A DNA stretch of 64,000 bases from a virus, in IMG/VR virus record IMGVR_UViG_3300015371_000015, positions 15,661 through 79,660 of that record; one strand, written 5' to 3'. Within the stretch, counting starts at the first letter, position 1; every line of letters starts with the position of its first letter. The notes under the pieces are model-generated. The model saw only the letters and a program-made list of their open reading frames with translations. It searched no databases and was not told where the DNA came from. The position numbers and the translations under genes are program-made. Shown one piece after another: positions 37,411 through 42,224 of this stretch.

Positions 37411-37632
37411 ATGAGCGAGGACAACAAGTACGACGAGGTCGAGAAGGCCTCTGCTCCGCCGCAGCCCGAGAACCCCCTGGGTGAGGCCACGGATCCGGCG
37501 GCCACCGTCGGTGACGCGGTCACCAATCCCTCGGCGGTCGAGGACGCTCCGGACCCCGAGCAGGCTGCTGCGCCGGTCGAGGACGCGCCGGACCAGCCCA
37601 CGCCCGAGTCGGGTAGCTCCGACGAGAGCTGA
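37411..37632 (+). CDS. Acidic Pro/Ala-rich disordered protein
   Basis: RBS AGGAG; VEDAPD repeated twice. Confidence 0.6.
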   Translation: MSEDNKYDEVEKASAPPQPENPLGEATDPAATVGDAVTNPSAVEDAPDPEQAAAPVEDAPDQPTPESGSSDES

Positions 37633-37745
37633 CATGTGAGCATGGGGGATCGGGATTAAAAGAACCAAGATTGGGGCCGGTACCCGCCTCAGCGCCCGGT
37701 CCCCCGTGTGCATATTTCAGAACTCGCGCGAAAAACAACTTCTAT

Positions 37746-37843
37746 AATGAGACGTACTGAAGCCAATCAGTTCAAATGTCGTAAGAAGCCAACTACCGAG
37801 CTATCCCTAGCTTAACTGTAGGTTGCGAAGACGACGTCTCATT
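37746..37843 (+). ncRNA. Candidate hairpin sRNA or structured leader
   Basis: aatgagacgt/acgtctcatt terminal stem with internal hairpins; follows motif 37724. Confidence 0.5.
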
Positions 37844-37876: not shown

Positions 37877-38134
37877 ATGGCACTTCCCGATGGAACCGGC
37901 CGCGCCGGTCGCATGATGGCCAACATGAGCTCGCTTAACCTCGGGCGACTGATGAAGGCCCTGATCGATCCCGATCGAAAGCTCAGCCCTGCGGAGAAGC
38001 ACCTCGCCGAGTACGTCATGGACGAGATCGTCCCGGGCACTCGCACTGCAGAGCACCCGAACTACAAGCACAAGGGCGACGGCAAGCCCGGGGTGAAGAA
38101 GACCAAGGAGCACTCTGGTCGACGAGCAGCCTGA
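37877..38134 (+). CDS. Hypothetical protein
   Basis: RBS AAGGAG; first gene of the RNA island. Confidence 0.65.
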   Translation: MALPDGTGRAGRMMANMSSLNLGRLMKALIDPDRKLSPAEKHLAEYVMDEIVPGTRTAEHPNYKHKGDGKPGVKKTKEHSGRRAA

Positions 38135-38135
38135 C

Positions 38136-38950
38136 ACTCGACTGAGCGAGTCTAAATAGGCCTTAAGCTCAGAGCGGCCCTCTTCGGAGGGTGTGGACTG
38201 TCTGGCGAGACAGAACTTTCTCAGCGAAACTGATCTGGCATACCGGAATCCGGCGTGCTTGCGGGAGTAGGTGTACAACTGAGGATTGGTTAAACAAAAA
38301 CACGTGGTGGCAAGTTCGAGGCAGCCCTGGAGTTGGCCGCTAAGCAGTCGGGTCTCCAGCCCTCTCGGTCTCTGACTCTTCATAGAGAAGAACCGAGGCA
38401 CTACCACCGCTCGCCCAGCACCTGAGGCGTGCAATAAACGGGGTGGCCCCAGTATCAGGCCATGTCAAAAGGCACCCCACCTTGACGTATGTCATATTTG
38501 TTAGAGACCTAGGAGGTGAGAGCGATGCAAGCCCGAGGGTTGTAATCACCCTCCTACAAGTCAACATAGTCTTGGTCATGGCAAGGACCCCCATTACGAT
38601 GGTAAGGCCCCTCCCATGATCATATTCGCATGGAGGCACTACACTCCGTGCGGCAAACCCGTCCCCTACAAACACCCAAGCTTCCGCATAGACGGTCATG
38701 AACGTAAAAGCGGACTGCTGAACTCTAGTGAGCCCAGACAACCTGCGTAGCGGCTTTATGTGGCGCCATCAGGAATCTGCAAGCCTAGAGCAACTGGAGC
38801 GGCCCATAGTGGCCTGGTTACAAATGCACGAGACAAGCACACCGGTCAGGTTAATGTATCCATATTCGTTGTGAATCACTGGACTAAACTGAACCGCGTA
38901 CATGAGGTGAGCTGCCACCATGGTTGATTCCAAGCGCAGTGAAGTTTAAG
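38136..38950 (+). ncRNA. Candidate large (~800 nt) structured ncRNA, or cluster of ncRNAs
   Basis: No credible + strand ORF; dense hairpins (ccctc-ttcg-gaggg, ctgtc/gacag, gtggtgg/ctaccac, ggggtg/cacccc, taggagg/ctccta, ctctag/ctagag, taaact/agttta). Confidence 0.6.
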
Positions 38951-38955
38951 CATTA

Positions 38956-39086
38956 CCCGTTCGGGTCGAATGCAGTCGGTTAACTTGAGTTATTGGTTCG
39001 AGTCCAATATGCCTTCTTTGAGGGCATTGGCGCAATTGGCAGCGCAAAGTACATAAAACCCGGCAGCACCCTTACATCCGAACGGG
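38956..39086 (+). ncRNA. Y RNA 1 (YrlA-like; permuted T arm, acceptor hairpin, D arm)
   Basis: cccgttcgg/ccgaacggg stem; GGGTCGAA/ACATCC; T loop TTCGAGT; D arm TGGCGCAATTGGCAGCGC; directly upstream of Ro60. Confidence 0.88.
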
Positions 39087-39115
39087 CTTCATCTATCCCA
39101 CGCAGAGGAGAACGC

Positions 39116-40888
39116 ATGACCACGACTGACCCGTACGCGGGTTTCGGTACGCGACAGACCCACCAGCAGCACCGTGCTCCCGACCGACCGGAGCAGGTCA
39201 AGAACAACGCCGGCGGCTACGTCTTCCAGATCGATCCCCTGACCCAGCTCAAGCGGTTCCTGACCATCGGGACCGTCGGGGGATCCTACTACGTCGGCGA
39301 GAAGGAACTGACCCGTGAGAACGGTGAGATGATCCTGAGCTTCACGCGCAACCCCACCACGCACGCCCAGCTCGTCGACACCATCGTCGAGATCAGTCTC
39401 GCGGGCCGTGCACCCAAGCAGAACCCCACGCTGTTCGCCTTGGCCATCGCGTGCCAGCACGGCGACACCGCTTCCAAGCAGTACGCGCGCAAGCAGCTCA
39501 CGAAGGTCGTCCGCACCGGTACCCACCTGTTCCTCTTCGTGGGTTACGTCCGGCAGTTCGGTGGCTGGAATCGTGGCATGCGGCGTGCAATCGGTGCGTG
39601 GTACTCCGAGAAGGACCCGGACAAGCTGGCCTACCAGCTGATCAAGTACCGGCGTAGGAACGACCTCACCCACCGTGATGTCTTGCGGATGGCTCACCCG
39701 AAGATCAAGATGGACGAGGTCAACGAGCGGATCGCCATGCTCGATGCCGCGTTCCGGGCGAACGAGGACGACCCGAACACCAAGGAGCTCATGGCGGATG
39801 CTCTTCGGGCTCGCAACGAGCGGCTGAAGCTCCGGTCGAACATCGACTGGACCATCAAGTACCAGAACCGGGACTACTCGGCGCTGGAGGGTGGAACCTC
39901 GAAGATCATCGAGGCGTTCGAGGCCTGCTGGCGTGAGCCGGAGAACATCCCGGCAATCATCAGCGACAACCCGGGGCTCCCCTGGGAGGCCTTGCCGGAC
40001 GAGGCTCTGACCAAGGTGGAGACGTGGGACCGGCTGCTGGACAACGGCATGCCCATCCACGCTCTGCTGCGTCAGCTCCCCCGTCTGACCAACCTCGGGA
40101 TGCTGCCTCCGATGGGGGCCGGGCGTACGGACGATGTCATCCACCAGCTCCTGAACCGTGAGGCGCTGGAGAGGGCTCGGATGCACCCGATCAACGTCCT
40201 GGTGGCGCTCAAGACCTATGCCTCCGGGCAGGGCGAGCGCAACCACTGGTCGCCGAACACCAAGATCATCGACGCGCTGGACGAGATGTTCTACCGCTCG
40301 TTCGGTTTCATCGAGCCCACAGGCAAGCGCATCTTGCAGGCCTGTGACATCTCGTACTCGATGATGGGAGCGAGGACCTTCGGTGGGAAGAAGCCTTTCC
40401 CGCTCTCACCGGCTGAGATCACCGGTGCGATGGCGTTGGCGACGGCTCACATCGAGCCCAACCACCACATCGTCGGGTTCTCCTCGCTCTCGGGGCAGAA
40501 CAACCGGGATCCGCGGGACTCGAAGCTGATCGACCTCAACATCAGCAAGCGGCAGCGCATGGACGACGTCATCAACACGATGTACAACCGGACCTTCGGT
40601 GGTACGGACGTCGCGCTGCCCATGGTCGCCGCCTTGGAGCACGGGTGGAAGATCGACACGTTCGTGATCTACACGGACAACGAGACCTGGCACGGGGATA
40701 TTCATCCTCACCAGGCGCTCGAGCGTTACCGCCGGCAGACCGGAATCGACGCACGCCTCGTGGTGTGTGCGATGTCTGCCTCCCACTTCAGTGTGGCCGA
40801 CCCGAAGGACCCCCGTCAGCTCGACATCAGCGGCTTCGACAGCGCGATGCCTCAGCTGATCTCGGAGTTCTCGGCCGGCAACATCTGA
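39116..40888 (+). CDS. rsr: Ro60/TROVE-domain RNA-binding protein (Rsr ortholog)
   Basis: QVKNNAGGYVF, LKRFLTIGT.GGSYY, RTGTHLF, YQLIKY..R..THRDVLR.AHP; vWA MIDAS DISYSM, GGTD, YTDNETW; GFDS; RBS GAGGAG. Confidence 0.96.
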   Translation: MTTTDPYAGFGTRQTHQQHRAPDRPEQVKNNAGGYVFQIDPLTQLKRFLTIGTVGGSYYVGEKELTRENGEMILSFTRNPTTHAQLVDTIVEISLAGRAPKQNPTLFALAIACQHGDTASKQYARKQLTKVVRTGTHLFLFVGYVRQFGGWNRGMRRAIGAWYSEKDPDKLAYQLIKYRRRNDLTHRDVLRMAHPKIKMDEVNERIAMLDAAFRANEDDPNTKELMADALRARNERLKLRSNIDWTIKYQNRDYSALEGGTSKIIEAFEACWREPENIPAIISDNPGLPWEALPDEALTKVETWDRLLDNGMPIHALLRQLPRLTNLGMLPPMGAGRTDDVIHQLLNREALERARMHPINVLVALKTYASGQGERNHWSPNTKIIDALDEMFYRSFGFIEPTGKRILQACDISYSMMGARTFGGKKPFPLSPAEITGAMALATAHIEPNHHIVGFSSLSGQNNRDPRDSKLIDLNISKRQRMDDVINTMYNRTFGGTDVALPMVAALEHGWKIDTFVIYTDNETWHGDIHPHQALERYRRQTGIDARLVVCAMSASHFSVADPKDPRQLDISGFDSAMPQLISEFSAGNI

Positions 40889-40900
40889 GTACGTAGAGAA

Positions 40901-41040
40901 GCAGGGCCGGGTCGAAGATGATCGGTTAACTGGATAACATTGGTTCAATCCCAATCCAGGTCTGGGCCCACAAGCCTGCCTGGCTCGCCACTTCGGTGGC
41001 AGATGAAAACATCCGGTCGTCACCCCACATCCGGCCCTGC
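40901..41040 (+). ncRNA. Y RNA 2 (T arm, acceptor-like stem, cUUCGg hairpin in D position)
   Basis: gcagggccgg/ccggccctgc; GGGTCGAA..ATCGGTTA; attgg-ttcaatc-ccaat; ACATCC. Confidence 0.85.
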
Positions 41041-41082
41041 CTCTCGCGTAGCAAACAACCTCCATAATAGGAGGTACCTATC

Positions 41083-41343
41083 ATGCCAAATCCCGACCGC
41101 CCGTTCAAGATCAGTGACCATGCCCGAACCAAGATGAGTTTGCGCGCGATTACGAAGGACGAAGTGTTCGACACCATCCTCGCCTACGAGAAGACAGACA
41201 AGAAGAGTAACCAGAAGCGTTATTTCAAAGGACGTCTTTGCGTAGTCGTGGGAGAAGGTCGCACCTTCGACACCATCATCACCGTGCTCCTCAACGAGTT
41301 CGACACATGGACTGATCACCACGCAAGAGATCGCAAGAAGTAG
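41083..41343 (+). CDS. DUF4258-like small protein (predicted RelE/colicin-like RNase fold)
   Basis: ISDHARTKMSLRAITKDEV...LCVVV...IITV pattern; own motif 41044, RBS AGGAGG, terminator 41349-41383. Confidence 0.65.
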   Translation: MPNPDRPFKISDHARTKMSLRAITKDEVFDTILAYEKTDKKSNQKRYFKGRLCVVVGEGRTFDTIITVLLNEFDTWTDHHARDRKK

Positions 41344-41412
41344 TACCCAAGCCTCACCCCGTTTCCACAAGGGGTTAGGTTTCGCTGCGGTCGCGAGGAA
41401 AACAACGCTTGT

Positions 41413-41465
41413 AATGAGAGGTAGGGTAGTAATACCCGGTAACCCGCCAGTTACGACCTCTTATT
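41413..41465 (+). ncRNA. Three-way-junction hairpin after motif 41391 (leader of the Y RNA cluster)
   Basis: aatgagaggt/acctcttatt enclosing gggta-gtaa-taccc and gtaac/gttac. Confidence 0.45.
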
Positions 41466-41488
41466 TCTTTGTCTCGGCTTGACTTAAA

Positions 41489-41625
41489 CAGCTCTGGGTC
41501 GAAGATGCATCGGTTATCAAATTGCCAGGGAGAAATCCCACCCCCCTAGATAGGCTAATTACCTATCGACTTACTGATCACACTATTAGTAAGCAAACCG
41601 GTCATCACCTCTACATCCAGAGCTG
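41489..41625 (+). ncRNA. Y RNA 3 (divergent three-hairpin payload)
   Basis: cagctctgg/ccagagctg; GGGTCGAA, ATCGGTT/AACCGGT, ACATCC. Confidence 0.83.
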
Positions 41626-41635
41626 CCTAAATTTC

Positions 41636-41709
41636 GATGCGGGTCGCTAGTCTTCGGTTATCAAACTCTCAATTTGAAGCCATCCGGAGACGTCAACCAC
41701 ATCCGCATC
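41636..41709 (+). ncRNA. Y RNA 4 (minimal; displays anticodon stem-loop Glu-CUC)
   Basis: gatgcgg/ccgcatc; gtcttcgg/ccggagac; tcaaa-CTCTCAA-tttga. Confidence 0.82.
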
Positions 41710-41717
41710 ACCTAAGA

Positions 41718-41822
41718 CGGACCTTGGGCTATAGCAGGCGGCCCTTGGACGAAGGCCTCTAGGATACCGTCCAGAAGAGGACCAAGGCCGGTCGGGATGA
41801 CCTCCCGCGGTATCCAAGTCTG
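41718..41822 (+). ncRNA. Unclassified structured RNA between Y RNAs 4 and 5
   Basis: cggac/gtctg, cggcc-ttgg/ccaa-ggccg, tggacg/cgtcca, cctct/agagg, ggataccgt/gcggtatcc. Confidence 0.45.
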
Positions 41823-41835
41823 CCCCCTAAGCTTC

Positions 41836-41976
41836 AGCGACGTGGGTCGAAAGAGAATCGGTTAACTTTCCTCTCAAGAAAAAGACCCGGGTTCGAATCC
41901 CGGCGGGTGCATAGCACCTGTAGTTTAGTGGCCTAAAACTCAAAACATCGGTCCTCACCACTACATCTACGTCGTT
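41836..41976 (+). ncRNA. Y RNA 5 containing a complete circularly permuted tRNA-Glu(CUC) mimic
   Basis: Anticodon arm tttc-CTCTCAA-gaaa; T arm ccggg-TTCGAAT-cccgg; acceptor cgggtgc-ata-gcacctg; D arm gttt-agtggccta-aaac. Confidence 0.9.
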
Positions 41977-41985
41977 TAGTTTTGT

Positions 41986-42126
41986 GTCAGAGCGGGTCGA
42001 ACTGGAATTCGGTTACCTCTGCGGAAGGAGTATTGTCGGTTCGAGTCCGGCCGTCCCCGTTAGGGGATGTAGTGTAATTGGCAACACGCTAAAATCCCGG
42101 AATCCTCCCTTTACATCCGCTCTGAC
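41986..42126 (+). ncRNA. Y RNA 6 containing a circularly permuted tRNA mimic with Arg-GCG loop
   Basis: cct-CTGCGGA-agg; T arm gtcgg-TTCGAGT-ccggc; acceptor cgtcccc-gtta-ggggatg; D arm gtgt-aattggca-acac. Confidence 0.88.
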
Positions 42127-42141
42127 CCATATTTGCACAAC

Positions 42142-42224
42142 CCTGTTCGGGTCGAATTGAATCGGTTATCATTCGACTGCTAATCGGAAACCGACGCCGG
42201 TTCAAACCCCTACATCCGAACAGG
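42142..42224 (+). ncRNA. Y RNA 7 (minimal; displays anticodon stem-loop Ser-GCU)
   Basis: cctgttcgg/ccgaacagg; ttgaatcgg/ccggttcaa; ttcga-CTGCTAA-tcgga. Confidence 0.85.

What the first reader, a model, noticed from the sequence alone, without database searches (positions are those of the whole stretch)
38136..38950. ~800-nt ORF-poor, hairpin-dense region upstream of Ro60: candidate giant structured ncRNA
Seen: the longest non-coding stretch in a tightly packed genome, made of nested helices (ccctc-UUCG-gaggg; ctgtc/gacag; tcag/ctga; gtggtgg/ctaccac enclosing ctggag/ctccag and ctcggt/accgag; ggggtg/cacccc overlapping gtcaa/ttgac as a possible pseudoknot; taggagg/ctccta; ctctag/ctagag; taaact/agttta) and ending 5 nt before Y RNA 1. 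Known: phages carry large ornate RNAs such as GOLLD and ROOL, often near tRNAs. Inference: a member of such a class, or a new one, co-transcribed with the Ro/Y system.
Basis: partly seen in the sequence, partly recalled or inferred. Interest (0 to 1): 0.78.

Follow-up and report, generated by a model that had tools for sequence, protein, structure and literature searches.

The report
Pistol ribozyme heading a non-coding leader
The flagged gene-free stretch of this soil phage opens with a known self-cutting RNA (a pistol ribozyme); the remaining ~750 bases are non-coding, match no known RNA family and fold no better than ordinary genes, so a giant ornate RNA is not supported.

Summary
As a whole it is not more structured than chance.

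- **Pistol ribozyme.** The first 63 nt (38136-38198) are a canonical Pistol self-cleaving ribozyme (Rfam 60.8 bits, gathering score 34.5). It starts two bases after the stop codon of an 85-aa gene. The predicted cut is G38193|U38194.
- **The other ~750 nt.** They have no Rfam match at E<=10, so GOLLD, ROOL, OLE, introns, tmRNA and RNase P are all negative. No homolog was found anywhere searched, and there are no Y-RNA or gene relics.
- **Folding.** The z-score is -2.1, inside the range of eight coding controls from the same phage (-3.7 to +2.1). A real GOLLD scores -4.9 and this phage's Y-RNA array scores -5.7.
- **Best reading.** The ribozyme cuts the 85-aa message away from a Ro60/Y-RNA precursor that begins with a long, lineage-specific untranslated leader.
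- **What keeps a functional RNA possible (~0.3).** In the nearest relatives the 318 nt after their Pistol evolve more slowly than synonymous sites. In another phage a Pistol sits just upstream of GOLLD.
- **Not run.** Covariation could not be tested, because no diverged homolog could be fetched.

The scan has noted Pistol-headed phage ncRNAs before on other DNA.

The parts
37620..37730 (+). Long imperfect hairpin directly after the stop codon of the upstream 73-aa gene. Probably the terminator or processing hairpin that closes the previous transcription unit.
   Evidence: MFE -56.9 kcal/mol, z -5.7, 0 of 200 shuffles as stable. The functional role is inferred.
37731..37752 (+). Promoter-like motif AAAACAA-N5-T(A/G)TAATGAGA. 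It is one of four + strand copies in the window (18830, 21778, 37731, 41398).
   Evidence: 4 matches against 0.11 expected from shuffles. A similar motif follows the post-Pistol region in L021. Promoter function is inferred.
37877..38134 (+). 85-aa gene of unknown function, with an AAGGAG ribosome-binding site. Its TGA stop lies one base before the Pistol.
   Evidence: Codon score 0.44 and GC3 0.78. One 72%-identical homolog exists (P0002). No Pfam or PHROG hit.
38136..38198 (+). Pistol self-cleaving ribozyme. P1 is 38136-39/38148-51. The pseudoknot pairs 38142-47 with 38167-72. P2 is 38159-62/38195-98. P3 is 38177-82/38187-92 with a UUCG loop. The predicted cut is between G38193 and U38194.
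   Evidence: RF02679 scores 60.8 bits against a gathering score of 34.5, over the full model 1-68. P1 pairs 4/4 and the pseudoknot 6/6; 40 of 41 phage pistols also pair 6/6, in 13 different pairings. The cut-site rule comes from PMC4604425.
38198..38213 (+). 6-bp hairpin (CUGUCU-GGCG-AGACAG) that starts 4 nt after the predicted cut, i.e. at the new 5'-OH end of the downstream RNA.
   Evidence: Present in the MFE and centroid folds. A protective role is inferred.
38199..38660 (+). Proximal non-coding part with moderate local folding. It includes a possible three-way junction (38304-38407) and hairpins at 38433-38471 and 38573-38653.
   Evidence: z -2.3 for 38194-38660, 2 of 100 shuffles as stable. 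Single elements score z -1.2 to -2.2. No Rfam hit.
38510..38556 (+). The only element that clearly beats shuffles: a hairpin that pairs a perfect Shine-Dalgarno-like UAGGAGGUGA with UCACCCUCCUA. It encloses an AUG (38525) and a 6-codon ORF.
   Evidence: MFE -22.0 kcal/mol, z -3.9, 0 of 200 shuffles as stable. Its meaning is unknown.
38661..38952 (+). Distal non-coding part without folding signal. It acts as a spacer running into Y RNA 1.
   Evidence: z +0.96, with 170 of 200 shuffles folding at least as well. Local z values are +0.3 to +1.5.
38956..39086 (+). Y RNA 1 (YrlA-like, with a tRNA-like module), 29 nt before the Ro60 start codon.
   Evidence: RF02553 scores 35 bits, E 1.6e-5, below the gathering score of 69. 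It carries the scaffold GGGTCG..TCGGTTA...ACATCC shared by seven units.
39116..40888 (+). Ro60 (TROVE plus vWA domains) gene.
   Evidence: PF05731 E 5.8e-39 and PF25045 E 4.8e-51. 43-46% identity to actinophage Ro-like proteins.

Best explanation
The flagged stretch is a composite, not one giant RNA. A transcript starting at the promoter-like motif at 37731 encodes an 85-aa protein. Two bases after its stop codon it folds into a Pistol ribozyme that cuts itself between G38193 and U38194.

By the established chemistry of this class, the upstream message then ends in a 2',3'-cyclic phosphate with the compact ribozyme at its 3' end. The downstream RNA starts with a 5'-hydroxyl, four bases before a small hairpin.

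That downstream RNA is the precursor of Y RNA 1, the Ro60 message and Y RNA 2. It begins with about 750 nt of untranslated, lineage-specific leader. The proximal ~460 nt of the leader hold ordinary local hairpins, one of them strong and sequestering a Shine-Dalgarno-like sequence. The distal ~290 nt are unstructured spacer.

The ribozyme therefore uncouples the fates of the small-protein message and the Ro60/Y-RNA precursor, and gives the precursor a defined, decay-resistant 5' end. The leader itself belongs to no known RNA family and shows no sign of an ornate fold.

What is shown: the ribozyme match, the absence of coding signal, the absence of known-family matches, and the ordinary folding energy. 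What is inferred: transcription as one unit, actual cleavage, and the stabilising effect of the new ends.
For: **Pistol**
- 60.8 bits against a gathering score of 34.5, over the full-length model.
- P1 pairs 4/4, the pseudoknot 6/6, the junction is the 2-nt GU, and P3 has a UUCG loop (rules from PMC4604425).
- The pseudoknot covaries between the window (CUGAGC/GCUCAG) and relatives L021/L005 (CAGGGC/GCCCUG).

**Placement**
- A Pistol directly behind a + strand ORF recurs: in 16 of the 41 motif hits tabulated (window not counted; one hit is spurious) the upstream ORF ends within 23 nt of the motif.

**Non-coding**
-, plus no family hits and no homolog of the minus-strand ORF.

**One transcription unit**
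- The promoter-like motif occurs at 37731 and 41398 only.
- A strong hairpin at 37620-37730 closes the previous unit.
- No terminator-like site on the + strand between 37000 and 41500.

**Not an ornate RNA**
- No Rfam match at E<=10.
- z -2.1 against coding controls of -3.7 to +2.1, and positive controls of -4.9 and -5.7.
- The distal third scores z +1.0.

**Lineage-specific**
- No nhmmer or blastn match in 50,697 phage records, 34 Pistol-bearing viral loci or 46 Ro60 metagenome loci.
- The local alignment to the relatives' post-Pistol region is no better than shuffles.

**Pistols in Ro60-linked RNA clusters, three lineages**
- This phage.
- L005/L021.
- Gordonia phage GMA2, where the Pistol abuts tRNA-Trp about 850 nt after a Ro60 homolog.
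Against: - 750 nt of useless leader is unexpected in a phage where most gaps are short.
- In relatives L021/L005 the first 318 nt behind the Pistol are more conserved than synonymous sites (4 substitutions against 11/147 four-fold sites in the adjacent gene, p=9e-4). Post-Pistol RNA can therefore be under selection.
- In viral contig L075 a Pistol lies 361 nt upstream of the Rfam GOLLD domain, with no ORF of 80 aa or more called on that strand between them. A Pistol can head a true giant RNA.
- Nothing here shows transcription or cleavage.
- Folding energy is a weak test: some functional RNAs do not stand out by it.
Confidence: 0.5

Rival explanations
1. The proximal few hundred nucleotides behind the Pistol (roughly 38194-38660, or the whole 750 nt) are a stand-alone functional non-coding RNA of a new, lineage-specific class. 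The ribozyme releases it at its 5' end and Y-RNA processing releases it at its 3' end. It works with the Ro60/Y-RNA system, for instance as a Ro60 ligand, decoy or scaffold.
For: - It sits inside a roughly 6.5-kb RNA-rich zone with seven Y-RNA-like genes.
- A Pistol heads GOLLD in L075.
- The relatives' post-Pistol 318 nt are constrained, p=9e-4, and the proximal/distal split matches the window: proximal z -2.3, distal z +1.0.
- The + strand folds better than the - strand.
- Earlier notes of this scan report Pistol-headed phage ncRNAs on other DNA (unchecked).
Against: - The folding z lies within the coding controls and far from the GOLLD and Y-array controls.
- The conserved piece in the relatives has no folding signal, z +0.16. 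Substitutions between L021 and L005 do not favour predicted pairs: 3 kept, 3 broken.
- There is no sequence or motif similarity between the window's region and the relatives' region.
- The better fold of the + strand is seen in coding windows as well.
Confidence: 0.3
2. The 750 nt are non-functional DNA: remains of decayed genes or a mosaic recombination joint in a fast-evolving accessory module. They are carried along only because they are transcribed between functional elements.
For: - No coding, structural or homology signal.
- The same slot in the relatives holds unrelated sequence plus extra genes: 124-, 157- and 132-aa ORFs.
- GC content (about 0.54) is below that of the neighbouring genes.
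Against: - tblastn with the relatives' neighbouring proteins finds no relic in the stretch.
- There is no Y-RNA scaffold relic and no tRNA relic.
- Phage genomes usually lose idle DNA.
- The sequence is identical in contigs of several rhizosphere runs from 2012, 2016 and 2018. That gives no information on selection either way.
Confidence: 0.17
3. The stretch encodes small proteins: the + strand ORFs of 44-58 aa, or the minus-strand ORFs of 133 and 213 aa.
For: - ORFs exist.
- A gene caller called a 119-aa version of the minus-strand ORF on an 839-bp contig of the same phage.
Against: - Codon scores range from -0.25 to +0.11, against 0.44-0.50 for real neighbours, and GC3 is 0.49-0.62 against 0.78-0.86.
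- No frame shows coding signal in sliding windows.
- No Pfam or PHROG hit and no homolog among 5.8 billion proteins.
- The 213-aa ORF overlaps the real 85-aa gene on the other strand.
- All confident neighbouring genes are on the + strand.
Confidence: 0.03

Closest known systems
Pistol self-cleaving ribozyme (Rfam RF02679; Weinberg 2015; Harris 2015, PMC4604425)
   Same: The first 63 nt match the full model: P1, P2, P3, the 6-bp pseudoknot, the 2-nt GU junction at the cut site and the conserved core (UAAAUA, UUAAGC, GAGCG). They lie in a phage, directly behind a gene, as in many other phage copies.
   Different: The host context is a high-GC actinophage-like genome, whereas the class is described as mainly Firmicutes and environmental (PMC4604425). 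It heads a Ro60/Y-RNA cluster and is followed by ~750 nt without a gene, rather than by the next ORF about 40 nt on, as in the L067, L074 and L078 copies. Cleavage has not been tested.
GOLLD RNA (Rfam RF02032) and ROOL RNA (Weinberg 2017, PMC5737381)
   Same: These are large non-coding RNAs in phages, found near tRNA or other RNA genes. I found one GOLLD lying 361 nt behind a Pistol on the same strand in viral contig L075.
   Different: No CM match at E<=10, whereas the L075 GOLLD scores 215.9 bits. The folding z is -2.1 against -4.9 for GOLLD. No homologs exist to show a conserved ornate fold.
Bacterial and phage Ro60 with YrlA-type Y RNAs (Chen et al. 2014, PMC4201824)
   Same: The stretch lies immediately upstream of a YrlA-like Y RNA and Ro60, on the same strand.
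   Different: The stretch carries no Y-RNA scaffold (GGGTCG..TCGGTTA...ACATCC) and no YrlA or tRNA match. I did not read the listed paper, so I cannot say whether long leaders or ribozymes at Ro60 loci have been described.
Ribozyme-punctuated phage operons and ribozyme-headed phage ncRNAs
   Same: A self-cleaving ribozyme sits at a gene boundary in a phage operon, where it would cut a long transcript and set the 5' end of what follows.
   Different: Here what follows is a long orphan leader plus a Ro60/Y-RNA cluster, not a conserved 150-200-nt folded RNA or the next gene.

Membership tests
Pistol ribozyme (RF02679) | Covariance-model score at or above the curated gathering score | tested here: met
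   60.8 bits against 34.5, model positions 1-68 of 68, E 1.3e-8 over the 64-kb window.
Pistol ribozyme (RF02679) | Three stems P1, P2 and P3 | tested here: met
   P1 ACUC/GAGU pairs 4/4. P3 GCCCUC/GAGGGU has 6 pairs with a UUCG loop. P2 GGCC/GGAC has 3 of 4 pairs (sequence).
Pistol ribozyme (RF02679) | [quoted passage not shown] | tested here: met
   CUGAGC (38142-47) pairs with GCUCAG (38167-72), 6/6. 40 of 41 phage pistols pair 6/6, in 13 different sequence combinations. There are two double changes relative to L021/L005.
Pistol ribozyme (RF02679) | [quoted passage not shown] | tested here: met
   G38193-U38194 lies between P3 (ends 38192) and P2 (starts 38195).
Pistol ribozyme (RF02679) | Mg2+-dependent self-cleavage giving 2',3'-cyclic phosphate and 5'-OH ends | not testable with these tools
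   Needs in vitro transcription of about 38100-38260.
GOLLD RNA (RF02032) | Match to the conserved 3' domain model | tested here: not met
   No match at E<=10 in relaxed scans of 1601 and 901 bases. The positive control L075 scores 215.9 bits.
ROOL, OLE, HEARO, raiA, group I/II introns, tmRNA, RNase P (Rfam 15) | Match to the family covariance model | tested here: not met
   All 4227 Rfam families were scanned. Only Pistol and YrlA (outside the stretch) appear at E<=10. ARAGORN finds no tRNA or tmRNA.
YrlA-type Y RNA | Scaffold of outer stem, GGGTCG(AA), TCGGTTA, insert, ACATCC and outer stem, as in the phage's seven units | tested here: not met
   A fuzzy search finds all seven units but nothing better than a 3-mismatch chance hit inside 38199-38950.
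Large ornate structured RNA (generic) | Folding energy well below shuffles and below same-genome coding sequence | tested here: not met
   z -2.1. Coding controls range from -3.7 to +2.1. GOLLD scores -4.9 and the Y array -5.7.
Large ornate structured RNA (generic) | Conserved structure supported by covariation among homologs | tested here: inconclusive
   No diverged homolog could be obtained. The metagenome contigs are identical.

The most novel reading that the evidence does not exclude
The Pistol releases a new class of several-hundred-nucleotide phage RNA that works with Ro60 and the Y-RNA array, for example as a ligand, decoy or scaffold. The unrelated-looking but constrained post-Pistol RNA of relatives L021/L005 would be its functional counterpart. 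Pistol-headed long RNAs, GOLLD included, would then form a recurring phage design.
Probability: 0.2. Interest if true: 0.75.

Novelty: new member of a known kind. Interest (0 to 1): 0.35.

Why it matters
The natural role of pistol ribozymes is still unsettled. Here one sits at a clean boundary between a small protein gene and a Ro60/Y-RNA cluster.

Pistols also occur in Ro60-linked RNA clusters of two other actinophage lineages, and one lies directly upstream of a GOLLD RNA. Together these give concrete, testable settings for the idea that pistols set the 5' ends of phage non-coding RNAs.

For the scan, the result is mainly corrective. The 'giant structured RNA' is a known 63-nt ribozyme plus an orphan leader whose structure is unremarkable.

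Tried and rejected
**Homolog searches that found nothing for 38199-38950**
- blastn 'distant' against 50,697 phage records. Only the Pistol matched, in Gordonia phage GMA2.
- nhmmer and blastn against 46 Ro60 metagenome loci, 3 viral Ro60 loci and 34 Pistol-bearing viral loci.
- The phage's own genome and two related viral records.
- Earlier scan notes by place.
- A Smith-Waterman comparison with the relatives' post-Pistol region is no better than shuffles, and the MAFFT alignment is uninformative beyond the Pistol.
- Back-translated scans of viral contigs and genome contigs found no relative.

**Sequencing runs**
- No RNA holder is listed.
- Contigs from four rhizosphere runs are identical to the window wherever they truly match, so they give no variation for covariation or selection tests.

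**Ideas rejected**
- Decayed Y RNAs.
- tRNA or tmRNA relics.
- Pseudogene relics of the relatives' neighbouring genes.
- An attP site: the phage has no tyrosine or serine integrase.
- A link to a phage-encoded RtcB: none is present.
- Small or minus-strand proteins.
- Complementarity between the stretch and the seven Y units. One unit beat 100 shuffles with duplexfold, but the duplex is full of large loops and the result does not survive correction for seven tests.
- Antisense matches to the rest of the genome: nothing longer than 12 exact bases (one 16-base match at 94%), as expected by chance.
- A weak look-alike of the promoter motif at 38886-38908 needs an indel and has a poor -10 element, so I do not count it.

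**RNAalifold caveat**
- RNAalifold on L021+L005 showed no broken pairs. This is an artefact of fitting the structure to both sequences: single-sequence folds give 3 pairs kept and 3 broken.

Full report
**What is there**

The window is 64 kb of a 79.7-kb uncultured virus record. Its genes run on the + strand. Its Ro60 is 43-46% identical to the Ro-like proteins of Microbacterium, Gordonia and Mycobacterium phages. Near-identical sequence occurs in contigs of several rhizosphere metagenome runs.

The local map is as follows.
- A 73-aa gene ends at 37632.
- A very stable hairpin spans 37620-37730 (z -5.7).
- A promoter-like motif lies at 37731-37752. It is one of four copies in the window, against 0.11 expected by chance.
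- An 85-aa gene occupies 37877-38134.
- The flagged stretch runs from 38136 to 38950.
- Y RNA 1 occupies 38956-39086.
- Ro60 occupies 39116-40888 (TROVE and vWA domains).
- Y RNA 2 follows, then a DUF4258 gene, then a second copy of the promoter motif at 41398, then five more Y-RNA-like units.

**Check of the observation**

The stretch is non-coding.
- Codon log-odds trained on the phage's own genes stay at or below 0.16 in all six frames across 38135-39115. They are 0.6-1.0 in the flanking genes.
- Each ORF inside scores no more than 0.11, with GC3 of 0.49-0.62. Its neighbours score 0.44-0.50 with GC3 of 0.78-0.86.
- No ORF has a Pfam or PHROG match.
- The 133-aa minus-strand ORF has no homolog outside this phage among 5.8 billion proteins.

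The claim that the stretch is unusually rich in structure does not hold.
- Without the ribozyme, the 752 nt fold with z -2.1 on the + strand and -0.6 on the - strand.
- Eight coding windows of the same length from the same phage give z from -3.7 to +2.1, with a mean of -1.35.
- Two positive controls behave very differently. A true GOLLD RNA scores -4.9 and this phage's own Y-RNA array scores -5.7.
- Split in two, the proximal 467 nt give z -2.3 and the distal 292 nt give +1.0.
- Taken element by element, only the hairpin at 38510-38556 beats all 200 shuffles (z -3.9). It pairs a Shine-Dalgarno-like UAGGAGGUGA with UCACCCUCCUA around a 6-codon ORF.

**The part that can be named**

Rfam places a Pistol self-cleaving ribozyme at 38136-38198. 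It scores 60.8 bits against a gathering score of 34.5 and covers the full model.

The defining features described by Harris et al. (PMC4604425) are all present.
- P1 pairs 4 of 4.
- A perfect 6-bp pseudoknot joins the P1 loop (38142-47) to the P2/P3 junction (38167-72).
- P3 has six pairs and a UUCG loop.
- P2 pairs 3 of 4.
- The 2-nt GU junction places the cut between G38193 and U38194.

Among 41 phage copies collected with a core pattern, 40 keep all six pseudoknot pairs, using 13 different sequence combinations. The window and its relatives L021/L005 differ by two double changes.

The ribozyme starts two bases after the stop codon of the 85-aa gene. The same placement, with a + strand ORF ending within 23 nt of the motif, is seen in 16 of the 41 other motif hits tabulated (one of them spurious). 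In several of those loci (the L067, L074 and L078 copies, among others) the next ORF starts about 40 nt after the ribozyme. A long gene-free tail is therefore not typical of pistols.

**The rest of the stretch**
- Two relaxed Rfam scans (E<=10) return nothing but the Pistol and, outside the stretch, the Y RNA. GOLLD, ROOL, OLE, introns, tmRNA and RNase P are therefore excluded as far as their models reach. ARAGORN finds no tRNA or tmRNA.
- The Y-RNA scaffold shared by the seven units is absent.
- tblastn with the proteins that occupy the equivalent slot in relatives finds no relic.
- The phage has no integrase, so an attachment site is unlikely.
- No homolog of the stretch was found anywhere I could search.

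**Relatives**

The closest Ro60 loci are two metagenome contigs, L005 and L021. Their Ro60 is 55-57% identical to the window's, and they are about 95% identical to each other.
- They also carry a Pistol directly behind a gene, though a different gene. It is followed by about 450 nt without ORFs, and then by a copy of the promoter-like motif.
- Their post-Pistol sequence cannot be aligned with the window's. The best local alignment is no better than shuffles.
- Between L021 and L005, the first 318 nt behind the Pistol carry 4 substitutions (1.3%). Four-fold degenerate sites of the flanking genes differ by 7.5-21%. Fisher's p is 9e-4 against the adjacent gene.
- The next 137 nt differ by 8%, which looks neutral.
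- That conserved piece nevertheless has no folding signal (z +0.16). The substitutions do not prefer to keep predicted pairs: 3 kept, 3 broken in single-sequence folds.

Post-Pistol RNA in this group can therefore be under selection, but not visibly for a stable fold.

**Two further contexts**
- In Gordonia phage GMA2 the Pistol abuts the 3' end of tRNA-Trp inside a tRNA array. It lies about 850 nt after Orf59, which is a Ro60 homolog (38% identity, E 7e-121) annotated as hypothetical.
- In viral contig L075 a Pistol lies 361 nt upstream of the Rfam GOLLD domain (215.9 bits) on the same strand, with no ORF of 80 aa or more called on that strand, and a tmRNA further on. I found no paper in the held library that links GOLLD with pistol.
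- Among the other Ro60 loci fetched, none has a Pistol, so the link is not general.

**Most likely mechanism**
- One transcript starts near 37755.
- The Pistol cuts it at G38193|U38194.
- The 85-aa message keeps the folded ribozyme and a 2',3'-cyclic phosphate at its 3' end.
- The Ro60/Y-RNA precursor begins with a 5'-OH, four bases before a 6-bp hairpin (38198-38213).
- The ends follow from the established chemistry of the class (PMC4604425; PMC8782182). Their effect on stability in an actinobacterial host is inferred.
- The ~750-nt leader is lineage-specific, with ordinary local hairpins in its proximal part and an unstructured distal part.

I put 0.5 on this reading, 0.3 on the proximal part being a functional RNA in its own right, 0.17 on idle DNA and 0.03 on hidden small proteins.

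**Limits**
- Transcription and cleavage are not shown. No RNA run is listed for this sequence.

**Novelty**

The ribozyme is a new member of a known class in a new setting, heading a Ro60/Y-RNA cluster of an actinophage-like virus. Earlier notes of this scan report pistols heading phage non-coding RNAs on other DNA (unchecked by me), so the theme is not new to the scan. The giant-RNA claim itself is not supported by any test I could run.

Noticed in passing
L075:10630-11471 (- strand): A Pistol ribozyme (69.4 bits) lies 361 nt upstream of the Rfam GOLLD domain (215.9 bits) on the same strand. No ORF of 80 aa or more is called on that strand between them, and a tmRNA lies further downstream. 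The Pistol may set the 5' end of GOLLD. L082 and L053 carry the same Pistol sequence. No paper in the held library links the two.
   Followed up: partly
L051:1013-3560 (Gordonia phage GMA2, KR063281.1): Orf59, annotated as hypothetical, is a Ro60 homolog (38% identity, E 7e-121). An unannotated Pistol abuts the 3' end of tRNA-Trp, between tRNA-Trp and tRNA-Gln in the tRNA array.
   Followed up: partly
L021:2627-2944 and L005:2024-2340: The 318 nt behind the relatives' Pistol differ at only 4 sites (1.3%), while four-fold sites of the flanking genes differ by 7.5-21%. This is a constrained non-coding element, yet it has no folding signal (z +0.16) and no Rfam match.
   Followed up: partly
window 18830, 21778, 37731, 41398 (+ strand): A 22-nt motif, AAAACAA-N5-T(G/A)TAATGAGA, occurs four times against 0.11 expected. 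Each copy is likely a phage promoter. A similar motif follows the post-Pistol region in L021.
   Followed up: partly
window 37620-37730: A 111-nt imperfect hairpin (-56.9 kcal/mol, z -5.7) lies directly after a gene's stop codon and directly before the promoter-like motif. It is probably a terminator or processing site. Rfam gives it a spurious weak microRNA match.
   Followed up: partly
window 38956-42224: Seven Y-RNA-like units share the scaffold GGGTCG..TCGGTTA...ACATCC. One lies before Ro60, one after it, and five lie in a 740-nt array that folds with z -5.7. All are below Rfam's YrlA gathering score.
   Followed up: partly
L021:3115-3230: The 5' leader of the 157-aa gene holds three successive hairpins with near-identical loops, CCG(U/A)UAAGGUAG. 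This may be a repeated protein-binding site.
   Followed up: no
window 41083-41343 and L021:1386-1667: A DUF4258 gene accompanies the Ro60/Pistol module both in the window and in the relatives (41% identity over 51 aa), but at different positions relative to Ro60.
   Followed up: no
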